From: an uncultured Thalassovita sp.
GTDB taxonomy: Bacteria > Bacteroidota > Bacteroidia > Cytophagales > Flammeovirgaceae
NCBI GenBank assembly: GCA_937129345.1
Contig: CAKZMZ010000259.1
Location: 1-58,799, forward strand
DNA: 58,799 nt
Direction of reading: 5' to 3'
Part shown: one piece after another, positions 39,471-45,479 of the stretch
Layout of the letters: every line of letters starts with the position of its first letter
Numbering within the stretch: the first letter of the stretch is position 1
Program-made: the position numbers and the translations under genes
The notes under the pieces: model-generated
The model's database searches: none
The model's input: the letters and a program-made list of their open reading frames with translations, nothing else
What the model was told of the DNA's origin: nothing

Positions 39471-40550
39471 ATGGACGGAAAGGCAATAGTCCTTACAAAC
39501 GGACTTCTAGATCATTACAAAGCAAAAACTGCACACGGCCTTATCAGAGGCACAGAACGTTACGAAATAGTCGGCATTATAGACCACAAGCACGCGGGCA
39601 AAGACGCAGGCGAGGTGTTGGATGGCAAAAAGCGGAACATTCCTGTGTATGCCAGCATAGAAACCTTTAAAGATGAGTCTCCTGTAAAGGCAGATTTCTT
39701 AATAGTAGGTATAGCCACCAAAGGTGGCGTATTACCTGAAGATATGAAACCTTTCATAAAATCGGGTATTAAAGCAGGTTTATCCATTGTGAGTGGTTTG
39801 CATGAGTTTTTGACCGAAAATAGAGATTTGGTGGAATTAGCCGAGGTATATAATGTGGATCTAATTGATGTTCGCAAACCCAAGCACAACAAAGAACTAC
39901 ACTTTTGGACAGGAAAAATCGCTGAAGTGGCTTGCCCTAAAATACCAGTAATCGGTACAGATTGCAACATGGGCAAGCGCACCACTTCACGCTTTATCAA
40001 TGAAGCCGTCTCCGCAGTGGGCTTAAATGCACACATGCTTTACACAGGGCAAACAGGTTGGATGCAAGGTGGTAAATACGGTTTTATCTTCGACTCTACT
40101 TTAAATGATTTTATTTCAGGAGAAATTGAACATGCTATTGTAGAGTGCTACAAAAATGAAAATCCCGATGTGGTTTTTATCGAAGGTCAGTCTTCTCTGC
40201 AAAACCCAACCGGCCCCTGCGGTTCCGAATTTTTGATTTCTGCTGATGCCGATGCAGTTATTCTACAGCACGCACCTACTAGAGTGTATTTTCATGGAAC
40301 GGAAGGTTACAAAAGAAAAATACCAACTTTAGAGCAAGAAATTGCACTTATTGAAATGTACGGCGTAAAAACTATGGCCGTAACGGTTAATGCAGAAAAT
40401 ATGACTTTAGAAGAGGCTCGTAAATACCAAAAAGAAAAACAAGAAACTTTGGGTATTCCAGTGATTTTACCGCTCGAAGATGGTGTAAATACCTTGGCAA
40501 ATTCTATTGCAGAATTGGTGGCTAACTTTAAACATCCCTTTAAAAGGTAG
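39471..40550 (+). CDS. dgcN: DUF1611 family protein (DgcN-like D-glutamate N-acyltransferase)
   Basis: KTAHGLIR, VSGLHEFL, GTDCNMGKRTT P-loop, TGQTG, DFISGEIE, IEGQSSL; directly upstream of an enolase-superfamily epimerase. Confidence 0.85.
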   Translation: MDGKAIVLTNGLLDHYKAKTAHGLIRGTERYEIVGIIDHKHAGKDAGEVLDGKKRNIPVYASIETFKDESPVKADFLIVGIATKGGVLPEDMKPFIKSGIKAGLSIVSGLHEFLTENRDLVELAEVYNVDLIDVRKPKHNKELHFWTGKIAEVACPKIPVIGTDCNMGKRTTSRFINEAVSAVGLNAHMLYTGQTGWMQGGKYGFIFDSTLNDFISGEIEHAIVECYKNENPDVVFIEGQSSLQNPTGPCGSEFLISADADAVILQHAPTRVYFHGTEGYKRKIPTLEQEIALIEMYGVKTMAVTVNAENMTLEEARKYQKEKQETLGIPVILPLEDGVNTLANSIAELVANFKHPFKR

Positions 40551-40597
40551 GGGAGAAATTTTACTAAATTTCCTTAACGCTTTACAACAACTAAATC

Positions 40598-41665
40598 ATG
40601 AAAATTACCTCGGTACAGACTGAAAAAAAAGAACTCGGATTATTAAGACCTTATTCCATAGCTTATAAGACAGTAGATTCTGTGGCAGTAAGTTTGGTAA
40701 AAATCGAATTGGAAGATGGCAATTATGGCTTAGGTTCAAGCAATCCTAGTCCTTACGTGGTAAACGAAACCCTAGAGGAAACCATGGCCAGTTTGGCTGC
40801 CGACGATTTTTCATGGTTGCTTGGCAAAGACATTAGAGAATTTCAGCAACTACTTTATGAATTACATCAGCGCTACCCAAAACAACCAGGCGTTTTATCT
40901 GCCTTAGATATTGCGCTTTACGATGCATTTACCAAATATTTAGGAATGCCATTGGCAACTTTTCTAGGTCAAAAAATCGAATCGCTTTATACATCTATTA
41001 CCATAGGTATTAAAAATGTAGAAGAGACTTTAGAAGAAGCAACTGAATATGTAGAGCGCGGTTTTAAGATTTTAAAAGTAAAGCTAGGCAAATCTTTTGA
41101 AGAAGACATTGAGCGCTTGGCAAAAATTAGGGAAAAATATGGCAATAGCATTTTAGTGCGCATAGATGCCAACCAAGGCTATGATTTTGAGCAAATCAGC
41201 GATTTTCATGAAAAGACCAAATCTTTAGAGATTGAATTGATTGAGCAGCCGATTGATGCTAAAAACATAGCTCCAATGCGAAAATTGCCTGATAACCTAA
41301 AGGCCTTGATTGCCGCGGATGAGTCCCTTATTTCTCCTAAAGATGCGTTTAGTTTGGCCTCGCCTCCATCTGCGTGTGGTATTTTTAATATTAAATTGAT
41401 GAAGTGCGGCGGTGTGAGCAAGGCTTTAGAAATAGCCACAATTGCCCAAAACAGCGGCATCGACTTAATGTGGGGCTGTAACGATGAGAGCATTATTAGT
41501 ATTTCGGCTGCTTTACATGCTGCTTTTGCCTGCCCTCATACCAAATACATAGACCTAGACGGCAGCCTAGACCTCGCCAAAGATGTGGTATCAGGCGGCT
41601 TTATTTTAGAAGAGGGAAAAATGAGAATCAATGGAGAAGCAGGTTTGGGGGTGAAATTGATATGA
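40598..41665 (+). CDS. dgcA: Dipeptide epimerase / N-acyl-D-glutamate racemase (enolase superfamily, DgcA-like)
   Basis: LKVKLG, RIDANQG, LIEQP, ADES, NIKLMKCGG, DLDG. Confidence 0.82.
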   Translation: MKITSVQTEKKELGLLRPYSIAYKTVDSVAVSLVKIELEDGNYGLGSSNPSPYVVNETLEETMASLAADDFSWLLGKDIREFQQLLYELHQRYPKQPGVLSALDIALYDAFTKYLGMPLATFLGQKIESLYTSITIGIKNVEETLEEATEYVERGFKILKVKLGKSFEEDIERLAKIREKYGNSILVRIDANQGYDFEQISDFHEKTKSLEIELIEQPIDAKNIAPMRKLPDNLKALIAADESLISPKDAFSLASPPSACGIFNIKLMKCGGVSKALEIATIAQNSGIDLMWGCNDESIISISAALHAAFACPHTKYIDLDGSLDLAKDVVSGGFILEEGKMRINGEAGLGVKLI

Positions 41666-41727: not shown

Positions 41728-44049
41728 TCAAAAAACAGAAGTCCCTTTTTCAATCTCCTCCAAATCTGTCTTAATCACAATGCCCCATTTCATTTTTGGG
41801 ATACTCGTAAAGAAATTTAGGGTTCTTTTACCACGGTAATCGATAAAGATATCGGAGCCTGTTTGCATGTAAGCGGCCCTTTTCATTGCATCAAAACCAG
41901 CCCGCTCTGGCGGAATGGTAAAAGGAACCTCAGTGACACTCGAATGATTGATTGGTGTGAGCAGTTTGATATCGCTGCCATTTTTGCTACAAATAACGAT
42001 TTCCCCTGTCTCGCCCAAAACCTTACTGTTGTCCAATAACAATTCTTTAAGGTATTCTTCTACATCTGCCACTATGACTGCATTGCCAATCCATTGATCA
42101 TATTTATCATAAAGAGGGGTAACTACTGTCATTTGTTGGTTGTCGGTAATGTAGTTGATGGTGTCTTTGTTTTCAGGCTTTCCTAAAAAGGTAAAGTCAA
42201 GTTTGGGCTCATTGATTTTAAATTGACTTTCTTCATTGGTGTTATAGATGATTCTGCCAGAACGGTCCGACATTATAATATCTGTGTAATGATTACTATT
42301 GACAATTGGCGCTAAAATATGGCTATAATCAGACCTTTTTTCATTATAAGTGGCATTGTAGGTCAGGTTGTAAGCATGGTCGTCGCTCCAATAAGTGATT
42401 CTACTAAAATCGTTCAGGATAATGGGCGAATATTTTATAAAGTTGAGATTGGCCTCCAATTGGCTAAAATGCCTTTCTACTTGTTTTGCTTTGAGTTGCC
42501 CCATGATCTTCATTACAGTCTCGTAGCGCTGCAAGTTAGATTCACTTATGTTTTTATACGCATTGGTAACTATAATGGAGAAGACAATGGTAATAAGCAA
42601 GGCCGCCGAAATAATGCCCGTTAGTATTTTTTGTCTATTTTTCTCACGGTTCTTTTCCTTTTCTATAGCTTGCTTACTAGCGTGTAAGTACAGCCTTTGC
42701 AACTCTGTGGGTGGTGGTTCTTTACCTTCTTCCATACAGTCTTGCAACCATTTATCGGCAAGCGCGATTTCAGACTCTCTAAGCAGCAGTTCTTTGTTTT
42801 TATTGGCTGCTTCCCATTCGAGCGATTTTTTAGAAAGTTTGGTGTGGAAGTGCACATGCTCTCGGTCAATATCTAAAGTTCTGAGTAGCTCGCTAAAACT
42901 GGCGTGAAAATCCCGCATGCCAGGTCTAAATTCTATCCATTGTATGTTGGCGAGTGCATCGGGCATCTCCTTTTCACCCACATAATTATAAAAAACCGTA
43001 ATAATGCGCTTGTTCAAGCTTACAGCGTATTCTACTTCCTCGGCACAGTAAGGCGAGCGAATAGAGTGTGGAGAAATGATAAAAACCAGGTTATCTGCTT
43101 CTTTAATGCCTTTAAATATCTCTTTTTTAAAATCGGTGCCTGCAGAAATGTACTCTTGATCAAACCAAGTAGTTTTACCATTGAGCTGTAAGTATTCATT
43201 GAGTTTGCGAGCAAAGTCTGAGTCGCTTCTAGAATAAGAAATGAAAACCTCTATAGGCAAAGAAAAACTCTTTTGCTCACTTTCAACAATAAAATCTCTG
43301 TGTACATTGGTGGGAGAGTAATTTTCTCTGCTCTCGCTTTCTTTTAACCAAGCTTGTGCCAGTTCGAGATTTTTGCCCCTGAGCAAAATGCTCATGTTGC
43401 TATTTTGTTTTTGCCACTTTAAAGCTTTTACCAGCAGTTGCTTGTGCCTTTCTACATACTCAGAATCTGTATACAATGCATGCAGTAATTGATCGCATCT
43501 TGCATTAAGAGCTATTTTGTTATTGAAAGAGCGGCTGAAATCTAAAAACTGTATAGAATTGATGAAAGAAGGAATGGTCTCTGAGGGCGTGTCTTCAATT
43601 ACAATAGAGATGATCCTCTTGTTTAGCTCATAGGCATAGTACAATTCCTTTAAGCAATACTCTGATTTTACTGAGCTTGGCGAAATCAGATAGATAAAAT
43701 TAGTAGCGCCTTCAATACCCGTATTGATTTCCTCCTCAAACTTTTTACCCGAGCGTATATCGGTTCGGTTGGTCCAAACCGTAAAGCTATTCCGCATCAA
43801 TTTTTTTCTGATCACCTCCATTCGGTCCTTATCTTCAGTTGAGTAACAGATAAAGGCCTCGGCCATTAGGTTGTAGGCGTTCTTTTCACTTTCGCAGATA
43901 AATTCTGCGTGTATTTCAGAAGGCTCGCATGGCGGATGTTCATTGTCGAATTGTAGCTTTAGCCATGCTTCTGCTTCAAGGCGTTCTTTGCCCACCAACA
44001 GGTAATCGTTCTGCTTTTTATGCGCTATCCAATCCAGTGCTTTTAGCAA
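41728..44049 (-). CDS. TIR-TIR-TM-Cache protein (downstream fragment)
   Basis: AFICYSTED...SEYCLKEL and VFISYSRSD...SPYCAEEV TIR domains; TM ILTGIISAALLITIVFSIIV; LGETGEIVI...DYRG...WGIVIKTD dCache-like end. Confidence 0.8.
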   Translation of the reverse strand: MLKALDWIAHKKQNDYLLVGKERLEAEAWLKLQFDNEHPPCEPSEIHAEFICESEKNAYNLMAEAFICYSTEDKDRMEVIRKKLMRNSFTVWTNRTDIRSGKKFEEEINTGIEGATNFIYLISPSSVKSEYCLKELYYAYELNKRIISIVIEDTPSETIPSFINSIQFLDFSRSFNNKIALNARCDQLLHALYTDSEYVERHKQLLVKALKWQKQNSNMSILLRGKNLELAQAWLKESESRENYSPTNVHRDFIVESEQKSFSLPIEVFISYSRSDSDFARKLNEYLQLNGKTTWFDQEYISAGTDFKKEIFKGIKEADNLVFIISPHSIRSPYCAEEVEYAVSLNKRIITVFYNYVGEKEMPDALANIQWIEFRPGMRDFHASFSELLRTLDIDREHVHFHTKLSKKSLEWEAANKNKELLLRESEIALADKWLQDCMEEGKEPPPTELQRLYLHASKQAIEKEKNREKNRQKILTGIISAALLITIVFSIIVTNAYKNISESNLQRYETVMKIMGQLKAKQVERHFSQLEANLNFIKYSPIILNDFSRITYWSDDHAYNLTYNATYNEKRSDYSHILAPIVNSNHYTDIIMSDRSGRIIYNTNEESQFKINEPKLDFTFLGKPENKDTINYITDNQQMTVVTPLYDKYDQWIGNAVIVADVEEYLKELLLDNSKVLGETGEIVICSKNGSDIKLLTPINHSSVTEVPFTIPPERAGFDAMKRAAYMQTGSDIFIDYRGKRTLNFFTSIPKMKWGIVIKTDLEEIEKGTSVF

Positions 44050-44064
44050 AATGCTGGTATGCCT

Positions 44065-44535
44065 TTAAACATAGGCTTTATGCTTGTTTAAAGCACTGCT
44101 TATAGATTGGCAAAGCACATTAAGCGCACCTTCACTTTCTTTAAGATAGATCCAATTGAGGTCTTGCACTACGGGATGCATCGAGTCTTTGATCTCATTG
44201 GCATTGGGCATGCGGCATAAAATGGGAATGATCCTTTTGCCATATTTCAATGCAATCTCTATCTCTTCTCTACAATACCGAGAGCCAATAGAATCGGACG
44301 AAATAATGAAAATGAAATTATGTGCATTGATGATGCCTCTTTCAATTTCGGTTCTGAAATTAACGGCCTCAGGTATATTGTTTTGGTCGAACCAAACCTT
44401 TAAAGAAGCATTGGTCAATTTTTCAACTAAGTTTTTGGCAAACACAAGGTCTCTTCTAGAATAAGAAATAAATATATCATCACAGGTTTGACTACTGCCA
44501 TTTTTTGTAGAAATAGAGATTGATGCTTCTGTCAT
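44065..44535 (-). CDS. TIR domain protein (upstream fragment, TIR_2-like)
   Basis: DIFISYSRRD...VWFDQ...IERGI...FIFIISSDSIGSRYCREEI..A...KRIIPIL. Confidence 0.8.
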   Translation of the reverse strand: MTEASISISTKNGSSQTCDDIFISYSRRDLVFAKNLVEKLTNASLKVWFDQNNIPEAVNFRTEIERGIINAHNFIFIISSDSIGSRYCREEIEIALKYGKRIIPILCRMPNANEIKDSMHPVVQDLNWIYLKESEGALNVLCQSISSALNKHKAYV

Positions 44536-44696: not shown

Positions 44697-45479
44697 TTAT
44701 CTTTTGAGATGCCTCCTATAACGATATTTGGTCATAAACTGCACGTTTACTCTTGCTCCAAAGAAAAAATACATGTCGTCTCTTCTGTTATTGTCTAAAC
44801 CCACATTGCCATCCAATACATCGGTTCGGGCGAACCGAACGCCGCCTTCTAGCTCTATATTGATGCTTTCGTGTAGATAGTATTTAATACCCACACCAGC
44901 GGGTATTACCAATGCCATATTGCTTACGGTGGTATCATTAACGGCAAGAAGGTCTCTATCATCATCAATGGATCTTGGATTGAATAGCGTGTAACCAACC
45001 CCACCAAACAAATATGGAGAAAAAGTACTCGAATAGCTTTCTATGCTACTTTTTGGTATAAACTCGTGCACCAAAACCAAAGAACCTTCGGCATTTAAAG
45101 ACTTAAAACCTGTAAATAGATTGCTGTTTTCTTTTGGCTGTGAATACAACTGAAACCCACTCAGCTCTGCTCTTAGGCTTATAAAATGGGTCAATCTGTA
45201 AGAGATACCTAGGTTAAGCAGAGGAGTTAAATGGTTTTTTTGATTGGCAAAATCCGGAGGAGTACTCAAATCGCCTGCGTAAGCTGTAATACCAACACCT
45301 ATATGGTAACTAAAAGGGCTTAAAAGCGGATGTGCATATTTTTTAAAATAGGGATAGGCCAGTGTTTTTTTCGGGGCAGGTGAATGTGGGTCTTTGGGGT
45401 CATATCCCGTATTTGTTAGGGCGAGACTTGGCAAAAAGATTATGCAGACCACAAAAGAGAAAAGGGCTTTAGCTAACAT
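44697..45479 (-). CDS. DUF6089-like outer membrane beta-barrel protein
   Basis: GITAYAGDL, SPYLFGGVG..FNP, IPAGVGIKY, TDVLDG, DMYFFFG; signal peptide suggests start ATG 45479. Confidence 0.8.
   Translation of the reverse strand: MLAKALFSFVVCIIFLPSLALTNTGYDPKDPHSPAPKKTLAYPYFKKYAHPLLSPFSYHIGVGITAYAGDLSTPPDFANQKNHLTPLLNLGISYRLTHFISLRAELSGFQLYSQPKENSNLFTGFKSLNAEGSLVLVHEFIPKSSIESYSSTFSPYLFGGVGYTLFNPRSIDDDRDLLAVNDTTVSNMALVIPAGVGIKYYLHESINIELEGGVRFARTDVLDGNVGLDNNRRDDMYFFFGARVNVQFMTKYRYRRHLKR

What the first reader, a model, noticed from the sequence alone, without database searches (positions are those of the whole stretch)
41728..44535. Toll-like-receptor-style architecture: three cytoplasmic TIR domains, one TM helix and a periplasmic dCache-like sensor
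Seen: three TIR domains (about 44480-44090, 43860-43480, 43250-42870). Each keeps the FI(S/C)YS start and the S-x-Y-C-x-x-E helix (SRYCREE, SEYCLKE, SPYCAEE). Each is followed by the same helical linker (H..LL.KAL.W....LL.G..L..A..WL...P.P...H/Q..F/Y...S). Then come a charged coil, one TM (about 42627-42568) and a ~275-aa domain ending GETGE...DYRG...WGIVIKTD. Known: that Glu is the catalytic residue of TIR NADases, which are activated by self-association. The linker is the type seen before WD40 repeats in TIR/STAND-WD40 proteins. dCache domains normally sit between two TMs and feed a kinase, MCP or cyclase. Here the gene stops after the Cache domain, with no second TM, HAMP or kinase. Inference: a single-pass receptor in which a periplasmic small-molecule ligand controls TIR clustering and NAD+ cleavage or signal production. 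I know of no characterised system like this.
Basis: partly seen in the sequence, partly recalled or inferred. Interest (0 to 1): 0.8.

Follow-up and report, generated by a model that had tools for sequence, protein, structure and literature searches.

The report
Cache-sensor receptor with triple TIR tail
This marine-type bacterial gene, broken by a stop codon in this copy but intact in relatives, joins three TIR enzyme-type domains through one predicted membrane helix to a Cache-fold sensor domain, so it likely works as a receptor in which an outside small molecule would switch on NAD+ cleavage inside the cell, a pairing I found in no paper I could search.

Summary
Confirmed, with one caveat. 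The gene reads TIR-TIR-TIR, one hydrophobic helix and a terminal double-Cache domain (AlphaFold pLDDT 88; Z 20 to solved dCache). This copy has an in-frame stop at codon 157. Other assemblies show an intact allele and a stop-plus-deletion allele. Intact orthologues (about 35-87% identity, three genera of one Cytophagales family) end at the same place and are under purifying selection. The Cache domain is closest to a SiaA-like receptor phosphatase and ends just before that receptor's second helix. The protein is one member of a large family: (TIR+helical linker)n, one membrane helix, swappable outer domain (WD40, CHASE2, FGE, WG, Cache; Cache types acquired at least twice more). TIR1 and TIR3 keep the full NADase residue set; the middle TIR does not. 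A small deoxyribosyltransferase-like protein co-occurs with the family (26 of 30 genomes) and is often adjacent or fused. Best reading: ligand-controlled TIR NADase receptor. No ligand, activity or phenotype is shown. This scan noted TIR-membrane-sensor proteins on other DNA before, but not the Cache form or the partner. No paper found.

The parts
41728..44535 (-). Whole gene, 935 codons: TIR-linker x3, coil, one TM, dCache; interrupted by an in-frame stop in this assembly
   Evidence: intact 932-943 aa orthologues
44137..44478 (-). TIR1 (type A unit), residues 20-133; S24, D50, Y87, C88, E91
   Evidence: Pfam TIR_2 E 2.8e-24; residues kept in 6 of 6 aligned sequences
44065..44067 (-). In-frame TAA at codon 157, in the first helical linker; polymorphic
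   Evidence: run X2 and contig L158 share it, run X1 reads a sense codon
43864..44088 (-). Helical linker 1 (residues 150-224)
   Evidence: unit alignment; linker profile hits
43516..43860 (-). TIR2 (type B unit), residues 226-340; keeps E297 but has C230 and N256 in place of Ser and Asp
   Evidence: Pfam TIR_2 E 1.1e-24; family pattern
43255..43473 (-). Helical linker 2 (residues 355-427)
42880..43248 (-). TIR3 (type C unit), residues 430-552; S433, D459, Y496, C497, E500; the most conserved TIR
   Evidence: Pfam TIR_2 E 1e-29; 90-97% identity in the same genus; nearest solved relatives SARM1, AbTir, Cat1
42821..43002 (.). 182 bases present here but deleted in another allele (frameshift in TIR3)
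   Evidence: joint in runs X2 and X3 and in contig L158; stop follows at codon 518
42628..42870 (-). Helical linker 3 and basic coil (residues 556-636)
42571..42627 (-). Single predicted transmembrane helix (residues 637-655), N-terminus in
   Evidence: hydropathy; positive-inside pattern
41731..42555 (-). Double-Cache (dCache) domain, residues 661-935, ending where related receptors begin their second TM
   Evidence: tree
44697..45479 (-). Upstream outer-membrane beta-barrel gene (DUF6089, weakly PorG-like), same strand; syntenic in three other genomes, functional link not shown

Best explanation
The gene encodes three TIR domains, one predicted inner-membrane helix and a terminal dCache-fold domain, and the intact protein likely acts as a single-pass receptor-enzyme in which a periplasmic small molecule would change receptor pairing and so likely switch on NAD+ cleavage by the cytoplasmic TIRs. 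Shown: the domain order, the dCache fold (model), intact conserved orthologues, purifying selection, one origin of this fusion from a SiaA-like Cache-HAMP-GAF-PAS-PP2C receptor lineage, a fixed A-B-C order of TIR types, and the co-occurrence of a small deoxyribosyltransferase-like (PF15891) protein. Inferred: (1) N-in topology, with the Cache in the periplasm; (2) ligand binding to the Cache changes dimer or cluster state; (3) with no C-terminal helix, the signal passes down the long first Cache helix, the TM and the coil; (4) TIR1 and TIR3 complete composite active sites on self-association, while TIR2 serves as a packing partner; (5) the product is ADP-ribose or a derivative used as a signal, with the PF15891 protein as reader or hydrolase. 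It is one of a repertoire of receptors that share this cytoplasmic engine and differ in the outer domain. The copy in this window is a pseudogene allele of a gene that is intact in other members of the population.
For: Fold: AF2 with 69 sequences, pLDDT 88.4; VIA Z 20.1/rmsd 3.3/239 residues to DvhD, 18.6 to Tlp1; top Foldseek hits are dCache ligand-binding domains. Orthologues: P0002 87%, P0003 77%, P0006 (Flexithrix dorotheae) 49%; P0265 (Chondrinema litorale); P0122 and P0123; all end within 5-10 residues of the same K-x-D/E motif. Selection: G008 vs G009 dN/dS 0.026 overall and 0.009 in the Cache (4.5 non-synonymous vs 80.5 synonymous changes). Origin: 7 of 7 such Cache domains form one side of a branch (SH-aLRT 98) inside this family's receptor phosphatases (quick tree). 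Catalytic set Ser/Asp/Glu in 159 of 161 first units, 142 of 161 last units, 8 of 161 middle units; these residues are required in AbTir (PMC11374754, passages). Family: TM within 100 residues of the last unit in 225 of 250, exactly one TM in 191; more K/R before than after in 215 of 226. Other small-molecule-type sensors on the same chassis: CHASE2 in 36 of 250, other Cache types in 4, two of them with an amino-acid-type F-x4-R-x-W-[YF] motif. Partner: PF15891-like protein in 26 of 30 genomes with the TIR array and 2 of 371 without; both exceptions have it fused to a degenerate unit; fused in 11 of 260 collected proteins.
Against: No activity, ligand, expression level or phenotype is shown. 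The copy here is broken and a second lesion exists in the population, so it is dispensable at least there. The Cache has no recognised binding motif (0 of 69 aligned sequences carry R-x-W-[YF]), and its conserved residues are mostly the structural ones shared with the parent family. A Cache review states that the only route for Cache signalling is its C-terminal TM (PMC4822843, passages), which this protein lacks. All TIRs have Tyr where cyclising TIRs have Trp. The PF15891 gene is adjacent to this particular orthologue in only 1 of 5 genomes, is not found in 4 genomes of one genus that have TIR arrays, and related genomes are not independent samples.
Confidence: 0.5

Rival explanations
1. It is an immune or danger sensor: the Cache detects a product of phage attack, predation or envelope damage, and the TIRs drain NAD+ to kill or stall the cell.
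For: TIRs resemble defence NADases (PADLOC TIR models up to E 1e-32; SARM1, AbTir, Cat1). Many paralogues with variable outer domains, broken alleles and a patchy distribution (30 of 401 genomes) fit conflict systems. Tyr in place of Trp could favour plain hydrolysis.
Against: The gene sits among housekeeping genes, with no defence gene recognised among the 29 neighbouring proteins scanned, in the same neighbourhood in three genomes of the genus. The Cache is under strong purifying, not diversifying, selection. PADLOC and NCBIfam hits cover the TIR part only and NCBIfam scores are far below cut-offs.
Confidence: 0.2
2. The Cache is not a small-molecule sensor here but a pairing module: it sets the dimer state or binds another periplasmic protein, for example the parent SiaA-like receptor, which these genomes still carry, so the TIRs report on that protein.
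For: No known ligand motif; distal module shortened relative to the parent family; missing second TM; the parent receptor is present in the same genomes; long branches in the Cache tree.
Against: Both PAS-like modules are retained and conserved. Other family members independently carry CHASE2 or Cache domains with an amino-acid-type motif, which points to small-molecule sensing as a recurring theme.
Confidence: 0.14
3. The TIRs are non-enzymatic adaptors, as in animal Toll-like receptors: clustering recruits partners such as the PF15891 protein, which carries the real activity.
For: The PF15891 protein keeps a Glu that aligns with the TIR catalytic Glu (weak profile match, probability 1.1%, E 0.047; E69 in at least 90% of 29 sequences) and is often fused at the array's N-terminus. 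The middle TIR is degenerate.
Against: First and last TIRs keep Ser, Asp and Glu almost without exception in three-unit proteins, which a pure scaffold would not need.
Confidence: 0.11
4. The fusion is a decaying accident: a truncated piece of a receptor gene joined to a TIR array, with no function.
For: Two separate lesions segregate in this population; the architecture is rare (three clusters matched over the whole linker-TM-Cache stretch among the best 150 of 1.84 billion representatives).
Against: Intact frames with the same end in proteins down to about 27% Cache identity; dN/dS 0.009 in the Cache; one origin kept across three genera.
Confidence: 0.05

Closest known systems
Animal Toll-like and IL-1 receptors (PMC7075850, passages)
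   Same: One membrane helix, sensor outside, TIR inside; activation presumably by clustering.
   Different: Opposite chain direction (TIRs are N-terminal here), three TIRs of distinct types with helical linkers, Cache instead of LRR or Ig, and NADase-type residues. Analogy only, no shared ancestry of the architecture.
dCache receptors, in particular the SiaA-like TM-dCache-TM-HAMP-GAF-PAS-PAS-SpoIIE phosphatase of Cytophagales (own genome C522, beside CheR, CheB, SiaB and SiaC-like genes)
   Same: Homologous first TM and dCache (28% identity); same fold.
   Different: No second TM, HAMP or C-terminal output; the output domain lies N-terminal to the first TM and is a TIR array. PMC4822843 and PMC8915833 (passages) have no occurrence of 'TIR' in their main text.
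Thoeris ThsB and other bacterial TIR NADases (AbTir, TcpC, Cat1; PMC11204291, PMC11374754, bioRxiv 10.64898/2025.12.03.692087, passages)
   Same: TIR fold with Ser, Asp and catalytic Glu; self-association-dependent catalysis expected. Thoeris type VIII uses a CMP-hydrolase-domain effector, a fold related to the PF15891 partner found here.
   Different: Membrane-anchored with an outer sensor; no Thoeris effector gene beside it; not in a defence island; Tyr for Trp before the Glu.
EACC2-caspase proteins with variable C-termini (Kaur et al. 2021, PMC8195603, passages)
   Same: Constant N-terminal enzyme module with a highly variable C-terminus that can be an extracellular CHASE2 sensor with TM helices; many paralogues.
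   Different: The enzyme there is a caspase; no TIR array or Cache is mentioned in the main text ('Cache' 0 occurrences).

Membership tests
dCache domain (Cache superfamily) | Long N-terminal helix followed by two PAS-like modules | tested here: met
   AF2 model pLDDT 88.4; VIA Z 20.1, 239 residues aligned; Foldseek E 5e-9
dCache domain (Cache superfamily) | Pfam dCache_1 score above the curated cut-off (45 bits) | tested here: not met
   24-41 bits in five orthologues; the parent receptors did not reach the listing threshold either
Canonical Cache receptor | Cache flanked by two TM helices with a C-terminal cytoplasmic output domain | tested here: not met
   One TM and a stop right after the Cache in 7 of 7 orthologue sequences
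dCache_1AA amino-acid sensors | YxxxxRxWY motif (PMC8915833) | tested here: not met
   Absent in 7 of 7 orthologues; an F-variant is present in two unrelated TIR-Cache proteins, P0168 and P0166
TIR NADases | TIR fold with catalytic Glu in helix C, plus beta-A Ser and beta-B Asp | tested here: met
   TIR1 and TIR3 in this protein and in 159 and 142 of 161 three-unit relatives; not met for TIR2 (8 of 161)
TIR NADases | Measured NAD+ cleavage on self-association | not testable with these tools
   Needs an enzyme assay
cADPR-isomer-forming TIRs | Trp four residues before the catalytic Glu (PMC11374754 citing Manik et al.) | tested here: not met
   Tyr in this protein and in 146 of 161 first units and 130 of 161 last units; product not predictable from this alone
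Thoeris systems | TIR gene in an operon with a signal-binding effector gene | tested here: not met
   Neighbours are a beta-barrel gene and an enolase-family gene in three genomes; a PF15891 gene is adjacent in one genome only
Thoeris systems | Anti-phage activity | not testable with these tools
   Needs phage challenge
STAND/NLR-like TIR-WD40 proteins | Central STAND NTPase | tested here: not met
   No NTPase family hit in Pfam; Walker A-like pattern in 4 of 256 relatives
Toll-like receptors | N-terminal extracellular LRRs, one TM, C-terminal TIR | tested here: not met
   No LRR; reverse order. It can work like a TLR without being one

The most novel reading that the evidence does not exclude
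Bacteria have an undescribed class of receptor-enzymes in which TIR NADase arrays, built as (active, degenerate)n plus active units, are the output of ordinary environmental sensors such as dCache and CHASE2. They would make an NAD+-derived second messenger that a dedicated deoxyribosyltransferase-like protein reads or destroys. TIR would then join kinases, cyclases and phosphatases as a general signalling output outside immunity, and a Cache domain would signal without its second membrane helix.
Probability: 0.35. Interest if true: 0.85.

Novelty: new variant of a known kind. Interest (0 to 1): 0.64.

Why it matters
If right, it adds TIR NADases to the short list of outputs driven by Cache sensors, and gives the first bacterial TIR enzyme gated by a soluble ligand across the membrane. 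It contradicts the stated view that Cache domains can signal only through their C-terminal helix (PMC4822843). It is directly testable: intact orthologues exist in two named species, the Cache domain can be screened for ligands, and swapping in a dCache of known ligand would give a chemical switch for the whole multi-TIR family, whose WD40 and CHASE2 members are abundant in filamentous cyanobacteria and have no known trigger. The alternating TIR types and the co-inherited PF15891 protein give concrete handles on how such arrays assemble and what reads their product.

Tried and rejected
Single-sequence AlphaFold of the Cache failed (pLDDT 34.5) and was replaced by the 69-sequence model. Sequence search of the Cache alone against the PDB found nothing useful; the profile did. 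The complex prediction of the PF15891 protein with the G005 TIR region gave no verdict (score 0.00, controls not run) and is not used either way. The PF15891 profile found no solved relative. A search for longer fused forms (1638-4675 residues) with the linker-TM-Cache part found none, which is weak evidence. The word-based search with the Cache part found only 2 proteins and missed known orthologues, so it is insensitive. Promoter scan: 10 sites against 10.3 expected, uninformative. RNA runs X3-X8 hold pieces of the gene as contigs only, so they cannot show expression, strand or level; the small-share runs are not used for habitat. dS between the window and its congeners is saturated, so only G008 vs G009 gives dN/dS. 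Sequencing error as the cause of the stop: rejected, as it recurs in run X2 and contig L158. Stop-codon recoding: rejected, as orthologues have ordinary sense codons there and one allele has a frameshift as well. A missed frameshift hiding a second TM: rejected, as orthologues end at the same place. The ESM Atlas answered only for P0006: feature hits to dCache clusters at 0.82-0.83, leads only. The source labels 'Thalassobius/Thalassovita' and 'Roseobacteraceae' on two records disagree with their placement in this genome's family and with type IX secretion genes nearby; I treat them as mislabels. The careful Cache tree did not finish; the quick tree is cited. PMC7685563 was not held.
Full report
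OBSERVATION. The minus strand at 41728-44535 is one frame of 935 codons with a single internal TAA at codon 157. Pfam finds three TIR_2 domains. Hydropathy gives one membrane-length segment, residues 637-655, preceded by a basic stretch (6 K/R against 2 after). The last 275 residues hit dCache_1 below its cut-off. Folded with a 69-sequence alignment they give a confident model (pLDDT 88.4, pTM 0.83) whose best matches are all dCache sensor domains: DvhD Z 20.1, rmsd 3.3 over 239 residues; Tlp1 18.6; PscC 18.4; Mlp24 and rpHK1S-Z16 by Foldseek.

THE BREAK. The stop is real and polymorphic. Of four runs laid on the region, X1 has a sense codon there and the full sequence (one contig, depth 5.95); X2 has the stop and also a 182-base deletion (42821-43002); the RNA run X3 shows the deletion; X4 covers neither site. 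The deletion shifts the frame in TIR3 and ends it at codon 518. Metagenome contig L158 has stop plus deletion; it need not be independent of X2. Four further RNA runs cover neither site. So three alleles exist: intact, stop, and stop plus deletion. The gene is being lost in part of this population.

INTACT ORTHOLOGUES. P0002 (87%), P0003 (77%) and P0006 (49%, named Flexithrix dorotheae) cover the whole length; P0265 is named Chondrinema litorale. Among 31 genomes of the family, full architectures occur in G000, G008, G009, G020 and G005, three genera. A profile of linker-TM-Cache against 1.84 billion representatives matched over its whole length in three of the best 150: P0003, P0122 and P0123. 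All have one TM and stop within a few residues of the same motif. G008 against G009 gives dN/dS 0.026 overall and 0.009 in the Cache. The terminal Cache is therefore a maintained feature, not a truncation artefact. In G008 and G009 the neighbourhood matches the window; in G020 only the upstream beta-barrel gene is shared; in G005 the neighbours differ.

ORIGIN OF THE CACHE. The only other match in the own genome is a TM-dCache-TM-HAMP-GAF-PAS-PAS-SpoIIE protein on contig C522 (28% identity), lying between CheR/CheB-like genes and SiaB/SiaC-like genes, with a SiaA-like phosphatase domain (below equivalog cut-offs except the SiaB family model). A Cache profile hits 135 of 401 genomes of the order. 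In a quick tree of 72 Cache domains the 7 TIR-fused ones form one side of a branch (SH-aLRT 98) inside the receptors of this family (support 89; long branches, midpoint root). The TIR protein ends just where those receptors start their second TM. One fusion of a TIR array with the first TM and Cache of that receptor lineage is the simplest reading; the direction is inferred from the much wider spread of the receptor.

THE WIDER FAMILY. Of 260 proteins collected by two searches, 256 have two or more TIR-linker units; of the 250 with a tail of 60 residues or more, 225 have a TM within 100 residues of the last unit and 191 have exactly one. Tails: WD40 174, CHASE2 36, FGE or WG 8, Cache 10 (6 of this clade including the window's), unassigned 22. 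The sample is biased by the queries. The other four Cache proteins belong to two different Cache types and keep a second TM: P0234 and P0207, and the cyanobacterial P0168 with P0166. The own genome has eight loci with the linker; their tails differ (WD40, WG and FGE read by eye there). No STAND NTPase is present.

TIR TYPES. Unit counts are mostly odd (3 in 167, 5 in 48). In a tree of 77 units from 20 chosen proteins, first and middle-odd units, even units and last units fall in three groups (support 98, 99, 99; the two rows that cross labels are from one six-unit protein whose numbering is offset). The layout is (A-B)n-C. Using the residues shown to matter in AbTir (S140, D167, E208; PMC11374754, passages), 159 of 161 A units, 8 of 161 B units and 142 of 161 C units have all three (205 of 255 proteins passed the completeness filter). 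In five-unit proteins the last unit is often degenerate (10 of 44). Here TIR2 has Cys230 and Asn256. Almost all units have Tyr where cADPR-isomer-forming TIRs have Trp. TIR active sites form on self-association (PMC11204291, passages), so an active-partner-active array is a plausible built-in assembly; this is inference.

A PARTNER. The gene directly upstream of the G005 orthologue encodes a 139-residue PF15891 (nucleoside 2-deoxyribosyltransferase-like) protein. In 401 genomes of the order, the TIR array was found in 30 (E<=1e-30) and this protein in 28 (E<=1e-8), with 26 shared. The two genomes with the small protein only have it fused to a degenerate unit. The four with arrays only are one genus. 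It is N-terminally fused in 11 of 260 proteins and lies directly upstream of an array in G005, G102, G230, G253 and on own contig C580, within two genes in G001 and G028, and apart in G052 and on own contig C91. Kin are not independent, so no P value is claimed. TIR and NDT folds are related (bioRxiv 10.64898/2026.05.01.722283 and PMC11204291, passages), and Thoeris type VIII has a CMP-hydrolase-domain effector (bioRxiv 10.64898/2025.12.03.692087, passages). No such gene was seen beside the gene in this window.

MECHANISM. See Best explanation (0.5). The weakest links are the unknown ligand, the route of signal transfer without a second TM, and the fate of the product. Defence (0.2), Cache as a pairing module (0.14), TIR as adaptor (0.11) and relic (0.05) are the rivals. 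Against a classic defence system: housekeeping context, stable position within the genus and purifying selection on the sensor. For it: the repertoire of paralogues, patchy spread and broken alleles.

LITERATURE. Full-text searches of the held library: 'TIR domain'+'Cache domain'+bacteria+transmembrane, 0 papers; dCache+'TIR domain', 0; 'three TIR domains'+bacterial+transmembrane, 0; TIR+CHASE2+WD40+bacterial, 2, neither on this architecture by the passages or abstract seen; four broader searches listed nothing on it by title and abstract; 'nucleoside 2-deoxyribosyltransferase'+'TIR domain'+bacteria, 3 listed; SiaA+SiaB+SiaC+Cache+phosphatase, 0. I saw passages only of PMC8195603, PMC7075850, PMC10907252, PMC7159879, PMC7517822, PMC11374754, PMC11204291, PMC11350192, PMC8915833, PMC4822843 and the two preprints; no supplement was opened. 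The source-data files of the Aravind-group papers could list these architectures, and most subscription journals are not searched. PMC11350192 notes that TLR features such as membrane anchoring seem absent from the bacterial TIR systems it studied, though some of its systems have TM segments. The role of SiaABC in aggregation is known to me from recall and NCBIfam names only.

EARLIER SCAN NOTES. No look-alike by sequence or place. By words, several notes describe TIR-TM-WD40 or TIR-TM-TPR proteins on other DNA; none has a Cache or the PF15891 partner. They are unchecked and not counted as support.

VERDICT. Real, conserved and apparently undescribed architecture; this copy is a pseudogene allele. 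New variant of known kinds (TIR NADase signalling; Cache receptors), with a one-in-three chance of being a new class of receptor-enzyme signalling. Interest 0.64.

Noticed in passing
G000:C580:1-2719 and C91:1016-1462; L013:8955-9371: Small PF15891 (deoxyribosyltransferase-like) proteins track the multi-TIR family across the order (26 of 30 genomes) and are adjacent or fused; a second, more divergent copy often sits directly upstream of the fused form.
   Followed up: partly
family-wide: TIR arrays are built as (A-B)n-C, with every second TIR lacking the beta-B Asp; arrays grow by pairs to 5 and 7 units.
   Followed up: partly
P0168, P0166, P0234, P0207: Separate TIR-array fusions to other Cache types, with the second TM kept but no cytoplasmic output after it in P0168 and P0234; P0207 has two Cache domains; P0166 adds WD40; P0168 and P0166 carry an amino-acid-type motif.
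   Followed up: partly
36 of 250 family members, e.g. P0215, P0228: TIR arrays fused to CHASE2, mostly named from filamentous cyanobacteria where a name is given; a much commoner small-molecule-type version of the same idea.
   Followed up: no
G000:C522:6390-13230 (L149): CheR-like, CheB-like, unknown gene, dCache-HAMP-GAF-PAS-PAS-SpoIIE receptor, SiaB-family kinase and SiaC-like gene in one run: a SiaABC-like locus joined to chemotaxis methylation genes; the receptor's Cache is widespread in the order.
   Followed up: partly
window 44697-45479: DUF6089 / weakly PorG-like beta-barrel gene lies directly upstream on the same strand in G000, G008, G009 and G020; it might supply or admit the ligand, or be mere synteny.
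   Followed up: no
window 39471-41665: DUF1611 gene plus an enolase-superfamily (MR/MLE) gene, convergent with the TIR gene and conserved in the genus; recalled as a dipeptide-epimerase-type pair, not tested.
   Followed up: no
G000:C137, C198, C383: Further TIR_2 proteins without the helical linker (857, 270 and 492 residues), a different TIR family in the same genome.
   Followed up: no
L155:1682-13041 (G042) and L156:2843-6484 (G323): PF15891 domain fused to one degenerate TIR-linker unit next to a very large gene, in two families that lack the full arrays.
   Followed up: no
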